64,000 nt of DNA, from the NCBI GenBank assembly GCA_051362555.1, contig CM120646.1:5704001-5768000 (forward strand). The letters are read 5' to 3'. This DNA is from Lingula anatina. Lineage: Eukaryota; Animalia; Brachiopoda. Positions 25,301-28,300 of the stretch are shown one piece after another; position 1 is the stretch's first letter, and every line of letters starts with the position of its first letter. The translations under genes were made by a program, and so were the position numbers. The notes below the pieces were generated by a model that saw only the letters and a list, made by a program, of their open reading frames with translations, was not told the DNA's origin and ran no database searches.

Positions 25301-28300
25301 ACGTTATTTCAAATCATTCTATAAAAGAAAAACACTCGTATAAATTTCAGAATGTTTACTGTTAAAGATGCAACGGCAAAGCAACAAAAATCAAATAACC
25401 ACAAATACTACTGACAAAATTAAATAAAAGCAAAGAAAAAAAATAACTAAAATTTCTATGAAATAAAAATTAGAAGAACTAAGGAAATAAAATAAAAACT
25501 CCAAAACGTGCAAGAGACTTAAAGTCAGCAGTAGTATAGCTAAAGCTGGGATTGTGTGTAGACACACCCTTGGTGATATGATAGAAATAACAGCAACACA
25601 GGCTTTTGACTGCATCAAAAATTGTGATAAACTTTCTAAAATGTGCTCTTAGATCTAAAATGCTGCTGCTAGCAATGAAGTACACAGTGGCATAACATGC
25701 TGATATATAATCATGGCGTTTCTTTTAAAAATTACTTTTTTTATTCTTTTGAAAAGTTGCACTCTTTTATATTTGTCTGATAACAAAGTTTCAGAAAAAA
25801 AAGTTAAACGTTTTAAAATCATTTCAATATACTATGGTGGTGCAAAACACCAACACGAGGGCTCCTCTATCTCTTTTCTTTTTCGAAATATTTTAATATT
25901 TCCCTTCCCCCCTTTTTAAATAGATAAAAATTAAAACAATAATTATATACACACCACCAATGTCCCAGATTCTGATAGTCTGATCAAGAGAAGCAGATAC
26001 AACCATATCCTCCGTAGGGTGAAACTGAGCACACATCACATAATGTCCATGACCAGTCAAGACACTGAAGGAGCAAACAGATCACAGGGCCCAATCAATC
26101 AATTAATATAATTAAATATAATCAATTCAGGGCATGCTGTTGGTTTGGCCAATCAGGTAGCCAAAAGCAAGGTGCTGTTTTTACAGTAGGTGTGGTTAAG
26201 ACTGATGGCTTTAATCTCCCTGAAAATGGACTGGAAATAATAGGAGAATACTTCACTTGGAAAGAATGCCAGTTCTTTATACCAAAATAGGAAGTTTTTT
26301 TTTTTCTTTATTCTTGAAGACTGTTGACGGTCTCACTGCAAACTGGACTGCGACCAGATGAAGGTGGGGCAAGCTTTATAATTTGAGGATGTTAGAGATG
26401 GGAGTGGAAGAATCACATTCTTTTTTTTAACTGGTCAAAATCATTCTTGGAAAAGCAGAAAACATTAAAAAGCACAGATTGTTCAAAAGTTACTGCTAGC
26501 TGTAAGCTCTAATGTCTCAGCACAAAGAGGAGTTAAAAATCAACAGAAAGCCAGATGTCTTCAAAGACACATTTGGTACTAATTAAAATTTTTACACCAA
26601 GAATACTGTTTAAATTGAATGAAATTCAAAACTTGTTTAAATATAAATAGGACTTTTGTATTTAGTATTAACACTTTAAAAAATCTTTGGGGATTAGAAT
26701 ATTGATCAGTTGACATTAGACATGATCCTTTGTGCTAAGAAACAGAGAGGAAGGAAACTTGGTGCCATGAAAGATTATAAAAGATCTGCAAGGAAGGAAA
26801 TGAAATAACTGTTAAACAGAAATTTAACCAGTATATGAGAAAATGATTTATCAGTGACAGAGTTTAACTCCAAATCTAAAACAGTAACAAATTATATCTT
26901 TTCACGCAAAAGTTCTCATTTTCACTGGTATCATTCCCTCACATAAACTGATCAATCAAAACAAAACCAAAGAAATAAAAAATAAACAAGAGTTGATCAA
27001 TTTTGCAACCACTGAAAGCAGCAACTGCAGAACCAGCCTCCAGTACCATCTGTGGCCAGTTTTTACCTGAAATGTCCCACACTCTCACGGACTGATCCAG
27101 AGAGGCAGAGACTACCAAGTCTTCACTGGGGTGAAACTGGGCACACATCACATAATGACTGTGGCCTGTTAACACACTGAGAATAATAATAATAATAATA
27201 ATTAAACAGCAATTTAACTGGAAATATCATCACACTGGTTGCTGAGGTAAAAAACAACATCTACTTGATGTTGCTGTCTTTCACAGACTGAAAAATTTAT
27301 GATTTCTGGATCTTATAAATAGCAAGTATCACAGCATTCTCATTTTGCACATAATTTGTTCAAGGGGTAATTGCATATAATTTCTTCTAGGAAACACTCT
27401 ATTTTTCCATCTTTTAATCTAACAGAATATGATATATATTTGGCAAAACACATAATTAAGTATTCAACACCAATTCTGATCATTTAGTTCTACTTCAGTA
27501 AGCTTACCACACACAGTTTCTTGACTGCCAGTTCCAGATACGTATTGTCTGGTCATCTGATGCACTGAGAATCCATGGGTATTCCTACAGTATAAGGTAC
27601 AATGGAATAACAAAGAAGAAAACAAAAATAAAAACTCAACTGGGTTTGTTTTATCAAACACCAAAAAGTGAAATAACTAATTCAGTAGAAATGGCTGGAA
27701 TTATCAATAATCAACTATTTATGTACAATTCATAAAACACAAGCTACCAAGTTAAGACATTGTTTCACATCAACAGCTGTAGAAGATTATTTCAAATTTG
27801 AAATGTGGCTTAAAACTCTTCTCTCAGTAAGACATGACTTGAAAAAGCAGATACTCACATGATGAAAGAAAGTTGTTCTAATGTAATCCAGATGTCCAAG
27901 TAATGTGAAAAGACACCTTCTCTGTTTATAATTCCACACCTAAAAATGAAAGAGATACATTCAAAGATTTCATGATCATGCTTCTTAAATTCTGAGGTAA
28001 AAAAAAGTGATTTTTTCTACAGTGTTGACTGACAAGAGCCATATGTTACTTTACCTTAATTTTGTAATCATCTCCACCAGAGACAAACAGAGGCTGCTGG
28101 TTATGGAAACAGATTCCTCGAACAGGGCCTAGAGTAAAAATATCAGGTTAACATATATTGTGTGTATTTGTTAATATTTTTACAGTCTAAATCAAGATTG
28201 TCCCCAAATAAAAATATAAGGCTAGTTATATTGAAGCAAGGACAGTAGGTCAGTGAAGTTTTGAAAATATGTTCAGTTAATTAATTGTAAACCTTTTTGC

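What the first reader, a model, noticed from the sequence alone, without database searches (positions are those of the whole stretch)
25955..27176. Mutually exclusive duplicated exon in the cargo-binding propeller of alpha-COP
Seen: two 110-nt exons with identical phases and canonical splice sites, ~1 kb apart, encoding the same WD40 blade. 29/36 residues are identical, the 7 differences are conservative (S/G, S/T, L/M, S/T, V/I, V/I, S/G), and 13 of the 29 identical residues use different codons, while flanking introns show no evident similarity. That fits an old duplication kept by purifying selection. Including both or neither shifts the frame, so only one-or-the-other gives protein. Established: the N-terminal WD40 propeller of alpha-COP binds KKxx/KxKxx retrieval motifs, and (from memory) the HxHY tyrosine, Y137 here, lies at that pocket. 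Inference: two COPI isoforms with tuned cargo selectivity, possibly tissue-specific. I do not know of this being described for COPA.
Basis: partly seen in the sequence, partly recalled or inferred. Interest (0 to 1): 0.85.

Follow-up and report, generated by a model that had tools for sequence, protein, structure and literature searches.

The report
Switchable twin exon in brachiopod alpha-COP
The lamp shell Lingula carries two old copies of one exon of alpha-COP, a core part of the coat that recycles proteins in the Golgi, and splices in one copy or the other in proportions that differ between samples, which likely fine-tunes the rim of the surface where cargo and the adaptor GOLPH3 dock.

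Summary
Exons 6a (27176-27067) and 6b (26064-25955) are 110 nt each, AG/GT-flanked, 29/36 residues identical, with silent sites near saturation. The gene is Lingula anatina COPA, and RefSeq already models both forms (X2 = 6a; X1, X3 = 6b). RNA reads from 4 of 9 listed runs use both exons: 6a->7 43, 6b->7 28, 5->6b 55 reads; no 6a->6b or 5->7 joint is listed. 6b leads in studies P1/P2, 6a in P3. Tissue versus genotype is not resolved. No second copy turned up in other animals (9 protein clusters; 3 complete genomic spans). The dilysine-tuning idea is only partly supported: Y137 and all cited pocket residues are the same in both forms. The one unusual change, S135G (G in 1 of 227 other sequences), lies where the human cryo-ET structure places the GOLPH3 hairpin (N135-Y137). 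Verdict: a real, apparently undescribed, possibly lineage-restricted member of a well-known class; functional tuning is inferred, not shown.

The parts
27508..27584 (-). COPA coding exon 5 (constitutive, 77 nt), donor GTG|GTAAGC
   Evidence: (joints 27583/27858 and 26064/27508)
27067..27176 (-). Exon 6a, 110 nt, residues 130-165, ancestral-type (S135 S146 L149 S158 V159 V161 S165); RefSeq isoform X2
   Evidence: (6a->7: 8, 1, 23, 11 reads)
27172..27212 (-). (TAT)n run in the 6a acceptor tract; reads are cut here, so the 5->6a joint is not listed
26065..27066 (-). 1002-nt intron between the copies; last AG before the 6b acceptor at -74; no significant long-range pairing
25955..26064 (-). Exon 6b, 110 nt, derived copy (G135 T146 M149 T158 I159 I161 G165); RefSeq isoforms X1, X3; weaker-looking donor GTG|GTGTGT
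   Evidence: (5->6b: 36, 9, 4, 6; 6b->7: 24, 0, 1, 3 reads)
24866..25954 (-). 1089-nt intron after 6b; G-rich tract at 25914-25900 and four GCATG (25700, 25247, 25093, 25016) are unvalidated candidate splicing elements
24650..24865 (-). COPA coding exon 7 (constitutive), begins with the flexible 166-197 insertion
7333..29174 (-). Whole coding span of Lingula anatina COPA (alpha-COP, 1226 aa in RefSeq X1/X2)

Best explanation
Lingula COPA has a tandemly duplicated exon 6 whose two copies are spliced one-or-the-other into mRNA, giving two alpha-COP forms that differ at seven residues of one WD40 blade and likely differ slightly in how partners dock on the rim of the cargo-binding face. Shown: both copies are joined to the flanking exons, never listed together or skipped, and the favoured copy differs between studies. 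Shown by sequence: both-or-neither transcripts carry early stops. Inferred: such transcripts are removed by nonsense-mediated decay, and choice is set by splicing factors acting on the weaker 6b donor in a tissue- or stage-dependent way. Inferred: 6a kept the ancestral sequence while 6b changed; its S135G change loosens the loop that carries Y137 and faces the GOLPH3 hairpin, L149M/V159I/V161I repack one face of the blade core, and S146T/S165G sit on the opposite face by the flexible insertion. The expected effect is a modest shift in GOLPH3 (Golgi-enzyme retention) versus KKxx (ER retrieval) engagement, not a new cargo code.
For: Junction reads in 4 runs of 3 studies: 6a->7 8/1/23/11, 6b->7 24/0/1/3, 5->6b 36/9/4/6; no 6a->6b or 5->7 row. 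Ratio X1 vs X7 Fisher p 6e-8 (by distinct starts 6e-6); mean 6b junction reads per constitutive junction 2.11, 0.90, 0.11, 0.20 for X1, X4, X7, X9. RefSeq X1 vs X2 differ only at these 7 residues. pS 0.72 vs pN 0.12; 6a-6b DNA identity 83/110 is no higher than 6a to six other animals' exon 6 (82-93/110). 6a peptide equals the single-copy exon of locus L001 (36/36) and S135 is in 22 of 23 named spiralians. G135 is in 1 of 227 non-Lingula sequences, the other 6b states in 17 to 221 of 227. Model (pLDDT 91.5) puts 135 in the loop between strands 126-132 and 138-143; the human COPI-GOLPH3 structure places GOLPH3 T189, K191, T200 against alpha-COP N135, H136, Y137 and shows GOLPH3 covering the KKxx site (numbering matched). 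Conserved ligand residues with conservative changes nearby is the usual pattern of the class.
Against: No binding, cell or structural test separates the two forms. The GOLPH3 contact comes from a 7.5 A map with wording 'in the vicinity of', and the residues tested by mutation were on GOLPH3 (K179E/E183K, facing D94/R55), outside this exon. Position 135 tolerates N and S widely, and bivalves even change Y137 to F, so the loop is not rigidly constrained. Singling out 135 is post hoc. No second copy was found in other animals, whereas most functional human events are deeply conserved. The between-study switch is confounded with genotype (P3 reads carry many fixed differences). 6a may be undercounted in X1/X4: its reads there cover only the last 47 nt or so of the exon, and the tool drops some reads silently. 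No regulatory RNA structure or motif passed its control. Only 4 of 9 runs, 6-30% of each, were read.
Confidence: 0.5

Rival explanations
1. Interchangeable copies: the two blades work alike, and both are kept only because splicing control has been split between them (each is the one included in some cells or stages), so each stays under ordinary purifying selection while 6b drifts among tolerated residues.
For: Six of seven 6b states are common in single-copy COPA (T146 43, M149 38, T158 221, I159 44, I161 17, G165 21 of 227). All pocket residues are unchanged. No conservation outside Lingula found. dN/dS about 0.05 fits plain maintenance.
Against: Changes are lopsided: 6 on 6b versus 1 on 6a against Capitella, 7 versus 0 against L001 (sign test by hand p 0.125 and 0.016), and G135 is nearly unique (1 of 227).
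Confidence: 0.3
2. One reading: the two forms differ in dilysine (KKxx/KxKxx) cargo selectivity.
For: Exon carries Y137, whose S. pombe equivalent Y139 is needed for binding a KxHxx peptide; residue 135 is two positions away on the same loop.
Against: Y137 and neighbours H136, V138, M139 are identical; none of the 7 positions is among the pocket residues in the passages read. S. pombe alpha-COP has S at this place and mammals N, and both bind dilysine motifs.
Confidence: 0.12
3. The difference in exon use reflects genotype (divergent Lingula populations or cryptic species with different cis-elements), not tissue or stage regulation.
For: P3 runs carry many fixed differences from the window, including 3 in 6a and 6 in about 70 nt of the intron after it; P1 and P2 are closer to the window and both favour 6b.
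Against: Both copies are used in both groups; about three quarters of human events of this class are tissue-specific. This rival concerns the ratio only and can coexist with the best explanation.
Confidence: 0.3
4. The duplication mainly serves dose control: unproductive both/neither splicing feeds nonsense-mediated decay to limit COPA.
For: Both-or-neither forms have early stops; X1 has intronic reads around 6b and X7 after 6a.
Against: No unproductive joint is listed in any run; both exons keep full coding constraint, which dose control alone would not need.
Confidence: 0.05
5. Assembly artefact or dead pseudo-exon.
For: No whole genome was held to check the assembly.
Against: Copies differ at 27 of 110 nt with unrelated flanks; reads join each copy to the shared exon 7 in the same animals.
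Confidence: 0.01

Closest known systems
Tandem duplicated exon substitution / homologous mutually exclusive exons (236 curated human events, e.g. DNM1, KHK, CAMK2D, ACOX1; PMC8373072, PMC9741552)
   Same: Consecutive homologous exons used in distinct transcripts, conservative changes, ligand-contacting residue conserved in both copies (as for KHK R108), condition-dependent choice.
   Different: COPA is absent from the human table (0 hits in the one supplement held). Most human events are shared across vertebrates; this one was found only in Lingula. Tissue specificity is not shown here.
RefSeq Lingula anatina COPA isoforms X1/X3 (XP_013382388.1, XP_013382390.1) and X2 (XP_013382389.1)
   Same: Exactly these two exon choices.
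   Different: Automatic models only; no paper on them was found.
Human COPA I164V A-to-I recoding by ADAR (reviews PMC12187073, PMC11673720; passages read)
   Same: A regulated, conservative I/V-type change in the same exon and blade (residue 164, flanked here by V159I, V161I, S165G), reported to alter COPA's cellular effects.
   Different: RNA editing of one base rather than exon choice; residue 164 is I in both Lingula copies; the primary papers were not read.
GOLPH3-bound COPI leaf (PDB 9QPQ; bioRxiv 10.1101/2025.06.26.661719)
   Same: Top fold match of the model (TM 0.96, 88% identity); names N135, H136, Y137 as the place where the GOLPH3 hairpin rests.
   Different: Mammalian, single isoform, 7.5 A; residue 135 was not mutated.
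Dscam1-type docking/selector RNA pairing (recalled)
   Same: Tandem exon copies used one at a time.
   Different: Two copies only; no pairing above shuffle background here; exclusivity can be explained by frame alone.

Membership tests
Tandem duplicated mutually exclusive exons | Consecutive, homologous exons of at least 7 residues | tested here: met
   29/36 identical, adjacent in the gene
Tandem duplicated mutually exclusive exons | Same length class and phase, canonical splice sites | tested here: met
   110 nt each, AG/GT, both keep frame singly
Tandem duplicated mutually exclusive exons | Each copy is spliced into mRNA | tested here: met
   6a->7 in 4 of 4 runs; 6b joints in 4 of 4 runs; separate RefSeq isoforms. 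5->6a joint itself not listed (repeat mask)
Tandem duplicated mutually exclusive exons | Not included together and not skipped together | tested here: met
   No 6a->6b or 5->7 row against 55 and 71 productive reads; rows need 3 reads from 2 starts, and decay would hide such forms
Tandem duplicated mutually exclusive exons | Tissue- or stage-specific choice (typical, not required) | tested here: inconclusive
   Ratio flips between studies but sample labels are coded and genotype is confounded
Tandem duplicated mutually exclusive exons | Both copies conserved in related species (typical, not required) | tested here: inconclusive
   One exon-6 peptide in each of 9 other clusters; single copy in 3 of 3 loci spanning exon 5 to 7; no other brachiopod or phoronid could be identified among hits
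alpha-COP (COPA) | N-terminal WD40 propeller matching solved alpha-COP | tested here: met
   Model of residues 1-324 matches 9QPQ, 6PBG, 4J87 at TM 0.92-0.96
alpha-COP (COPA) | Dilysine pocket residues | tested here: met
   R11, K13, H29, R55, D94, D113, Y137 read from P0121 against residues named
Docking/selector RNA-structure exclusion (Dscam1 type) | One element pairing competitively with a selector at each exon, above chance and conserved | tested here: inconclusive
   Best ungapped helix -25.0 kcal/mol reached by 26 of 125 shuffles; no relatives for covariation
Steric exclusion (alpha-tropomyosin type, recalled) | Branch point within about 50 nt of the upstream donor, long AG-free zone | tested here: not met
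   Intron 1002 nt, AG at -74, -112, -139, -146 before the 6b acceptor
U2/U12 incompatibility exclusion (recalled) | A minor-spliceosome site on one side of each exon | tested here: not met
   All donors GT of ordinary type, none with the U12 consensus
Frame/NMD-enforced exclusion | Both/neither forms have early stops and are degraded | tested here: inconclusive
   Stops at codons 168 and 132; decay itself not testable here

The most novel reading that the evidence does not exclude
Lingula uses a splice switch to set whether its COPI coat prefers the GOLPH3 adaptor (holding glycosylation enzymes in the Golgi) or dilysine cargo (return to the ER), by exchanging the loop residue 135 at their shared docking face; with human I164V editing and the inserts at the exon 6/7 joint in nemerteans, oysters, amphioxus and Owenia, this blade would be a recurrent, independently evolved tuning knob of COPI.
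Probability: 0.15. Interest if true: 0.78.

Novelty: new member of a known kind. Interest (0 to 1): 0.45.

Why it matters
COPI is treated as housekeeping machinery with one alpha subunit in animals. A natural pair of alpha-COP forms that differ at the GOLPH3/dilysine face gives a ready-made, evolution-tested pair of variants (above all S135G) for asking how much that loop matters for the cargo switch proposed for Golgi maturation. If the forms behave alike, it is a clean example of an exon pair kept for a long time by divided splicing control alone. Either way the reach is limited while it is known from one genus.

Tried and rejected
Whole genome: none held, so no check of other loci or of Lingula GOLPH3. 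Run search: no RNA holder listed; nine same-species raw-read runs were offered; four were laid, the other five remain unexamined. Long-range RNA pairing: best helix (26757-26744 with 25913-25900, which would loop out 6b) and an 11-bp pairing of 26437-26427 with the start of 6b are not above shuffles (26 of 125 reach the best energy; count of helices at or below -14 is 175 against a mean of 149.5, exceeded by 4 of 125). Motif counts: four GCATG after 6b (expected 0.8, p 0.009, one of 45 tests, no TGCATG) is a lead only. Steric and U12 mechanisms rejected. 107-nt form of 6b not seen in reads. Relatives: three protein searches (120 of 583, 120 of 370 and 27 of 27 hits listed) gave no 6b-like peptide outside Lingula (best: 4 of 7 states); 80 of 496 metagenome loci were kept, of which 6 have an intron-flanked animal-type 110-nt exon and 3 span exon 5 to 7, all single-copy with no decayed copy above shuffles. 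An apparent C65Y variant came from my exon-3 boundary being off by one; corrected it is silent. The EMBO J 2013 alpha-COP/peptide paper was not held, so peptide contacts rest on two other papers. No complex was predicted: no GOLPH3 sequence was available from the session's searches, and a one-residue loop change is below what that test resolves. Earlier findings: nothing returned.

Full report
Observation. They encode residues 130-165, 29/36 identical; 13 of the 29 identical residues use different codons. Nei-Gojobori counting gives pS 0.72 and pN 0.12 (corrected dS about 2.5, poorly determined; dN 0.13). The 300-nt flanks are unrelated (110 of 300 and 111 of 300 shuffles reach the observed score). 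Either exon alone keeps the frame; both give a stop at codon 168, neither at codon 132.

Identity. A downstream exon matches P0121, named Lingula anatina coatomer subunit alpha isoform X2, at 100%. Its cluster has three RefSeq proteins: X2 carries 6a, X1 and X3 carry 6b, and X1 and X2 differ only at the seven exon-6 residues. The event is therefore already present in automatic annotation. The gene runs from the ATG at 29174 to about 7333.

Expression. Four of nine listed runs were laid, 6-30% of each. Junction reads for X1, X4, X7, X9: 6a->7 8, 1, 23, 11; 6b->7 24, 0, 1, 3; 5->6b 36, 9, 4, 6 (two allele rows summed). No 6a->6b and no 5->7 joint is listed (rows need 3 reads from 2 starts; decay would also hide them). 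The 5->6a joint is not listed because reads are cut at a (TAT)n run at the acceptor. The favoured exon flips: X1 versus X7 Fisher p 6e-8, X1 versus X9 p 0.001. In X1 the 6a reads reach only about 47 nt into the exon, so 6a may be undercounted there; a measure free of 6a gives the same picture: mean 6b junction reads per constitutive junction are 2.11, 0.90, 0.11 and 0.20. The cause is open: labels are coded, and the P3 animals differ from the window at many fixed sites. Of 35 coding variants examined, 34 are silent and one is A173S (40 further variant rows were not shown). The three listed in 6a are silent; none in 6b was among the rows shown.

History. Among 227 non-Lingula exon-6 peptides (92 distinct) no 6b-like one occurs; the best shares 4 of 7 states. 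Nine clusters from other animals, with 2 to 10 members covering the exon, each show one exon-6 peptide. Of 80 metagenome loci kept, six have an intron-flanked 110-nt exon 6 of animal type, three span exon 5 to exon 7, and all three have a single copy; their nearest named proteins are annelid, mollusc or chordate rather than Lingula, so they do not date the event within brachiopods. 6a is the ancestral type: identical to the single exon of L001, one residue from Capitella and Elysia; 6b carries six or seven changes. At DNA level 6a is no closer to 6b (83/110) than to those six foreign exons (82-93/110). Inference: an old duplication on the line to Lingula, followed by lopsided protein change; its age cannot be given.

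Where the changes fall. The model of residues 1-324 (pLDDT 91.5) matches solved alpha-COP propellers at TM 0.92-0.96. Strands are 126-132, 138-143, 149-154, 158-163, followed by a poorly ordered insertion (172-194). By standard WD40 anatomy (recalled), 135 lies in the loop on the cargo-binding top face, 158 at the top end of the third strand, 146 and 165 on the bottom face, and 149, 159, 161 alternate onto one side of the sheet, which suggests core repacking. Y137 (S. pombe Y139, needed for peptide binding; passages of 10.1101/2021.09.03.458953) is unchanged, and the other pocket residues named there and in PMC3521961 (passages) lie outside the exon. Six of the seven 6b states are common elsewhere (17 to 221 of 227), but G135 occurs in 1 of 227 (N 163, S 62, C 1). 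The COPI-GOLPH3 structure paper (passages, outline and section 7 read) places the GOLPH3 hairpin residues T189, K191, T200 against alpha-COP N135, H136, Y137, shows GOLPH3 covering the KKxx site, and finds the GOLPH3/alpha-COP contact needed for retention of Golgi residents. That makes GOLPH3 docking, or its competition with KKxx cargo, the best-placed target of the switch. This is inference from a 7.5 A mammalian map; residue 135 was not tested there.

How exclusivity is kept. The 1002-nt inner intron with AG at -74 rules out the steric model, and the sites are of ordinary type. Long-range pairings are not above shuffles, and motif counts give only a weak lead. The simplest account is competition between the exons, with frame-shifted forms removed by decay; neither the regulator nor the decay is shown.

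Comparison with what is known. The pair meets the criteria for tandem duplicated exon substitutions and follows their usual pattern of conserved ligand residues and conservative changes (PMC9741552, passages). COPA is not in the human table (PMC8373072, the one supplement held) nor in the one supplement held for PMC9741552 (its larger tables may not be held). Five searches for a COPA or Lingula mutually exclusive exon found no description (two hits were opened and concern gamma-COP; the rest were seen as listings only). Subscription papers are not covered. The same exon holds the human ADAR recoding site I164V (review passages), and isoforms with inserts at the exon 6/7 joint occur in Lineus, Magallana, Branchiostoma and Owenia, so this blade and the loop behind it are varied repeatedly by other means.

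Verdict. A real, expressed, switchable mutually exclusive exon pair; new member of a known kind, already in RefSeq but apparently undescribed, so far known from one genus. Functional tuning near the GOLPH3/dilysine face is the most likely reason (0.5), interchangeable copies the main rival (0.3). Interest 0.45.

Noticed in passing
window 12730-13335: Tandem array of 5.6 copies of about 109 nt built from the 3' end of a COPA exon with its GTGAGT donor and following intron; the extra copies appear to lack an acceptor, so probably a recent local expansion offering spare donors.
   Followed up: partly
window 21441-22891: 146-nt unit repeated 9.9 times (94% alike) inside the long COPA intron after exon 8.
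   Followed up: no
P0131/P0228 (Lineus), P0245 (Magallana), P0203/P0264 (Branchiostoma), P0163 (Owenia), P0173/P0260 (Mercenaria, Ruditapes): Annotated isoforms with 2-12 residue inserts at the exon 6/7 joint or at residue 175, all in the flexible loop after this blade; the Owenia insert looks like a duplicate of the start of exon 7.
   Followed up: partly
P0138, P0242, P0191, P0225, P0261, P0173, P0260, P0169 (bivalves): All eight named bivalve proteins have F at the pocket tyrosine 137 (and A132), as beta'-COP has F at the matching place.
   Followed up: no
window 25958-25960 (codon 164): Residue 164 is the human ADAR recoding site I164V; both Lingula copies keep ATT and no recoding row was among those shown.
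   Followed up: partly
window 26355-26511: Sense-strand intronic reads in X1 (8 reads, 4 starts) near A-rich tracts; pre-mRNA capture or a cryptic exon, not resolved.
   Followed up: no
window 24650-28640, runs X7 and X9: P3 animals differ from the window at about 9 fixed sites in the 216-nt exon 7, suggesting a divergent population or cryptic species under the same label.
   Followed up: partly
window about 15165 (P0226 residue 828): RefSeq X3 lacks one alanine at 828, a 3-nt shift at an exon boundary.
   Followed up: no
window 3669-4736, 30887-33475, 35133-36200, 53137-54087, 60286-61233: Neighbouring ORFs look by eye like glycosyltransferases and several tandem carbohydrate sulfotransferases; named from recall, not scanned.
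   Followed up: no
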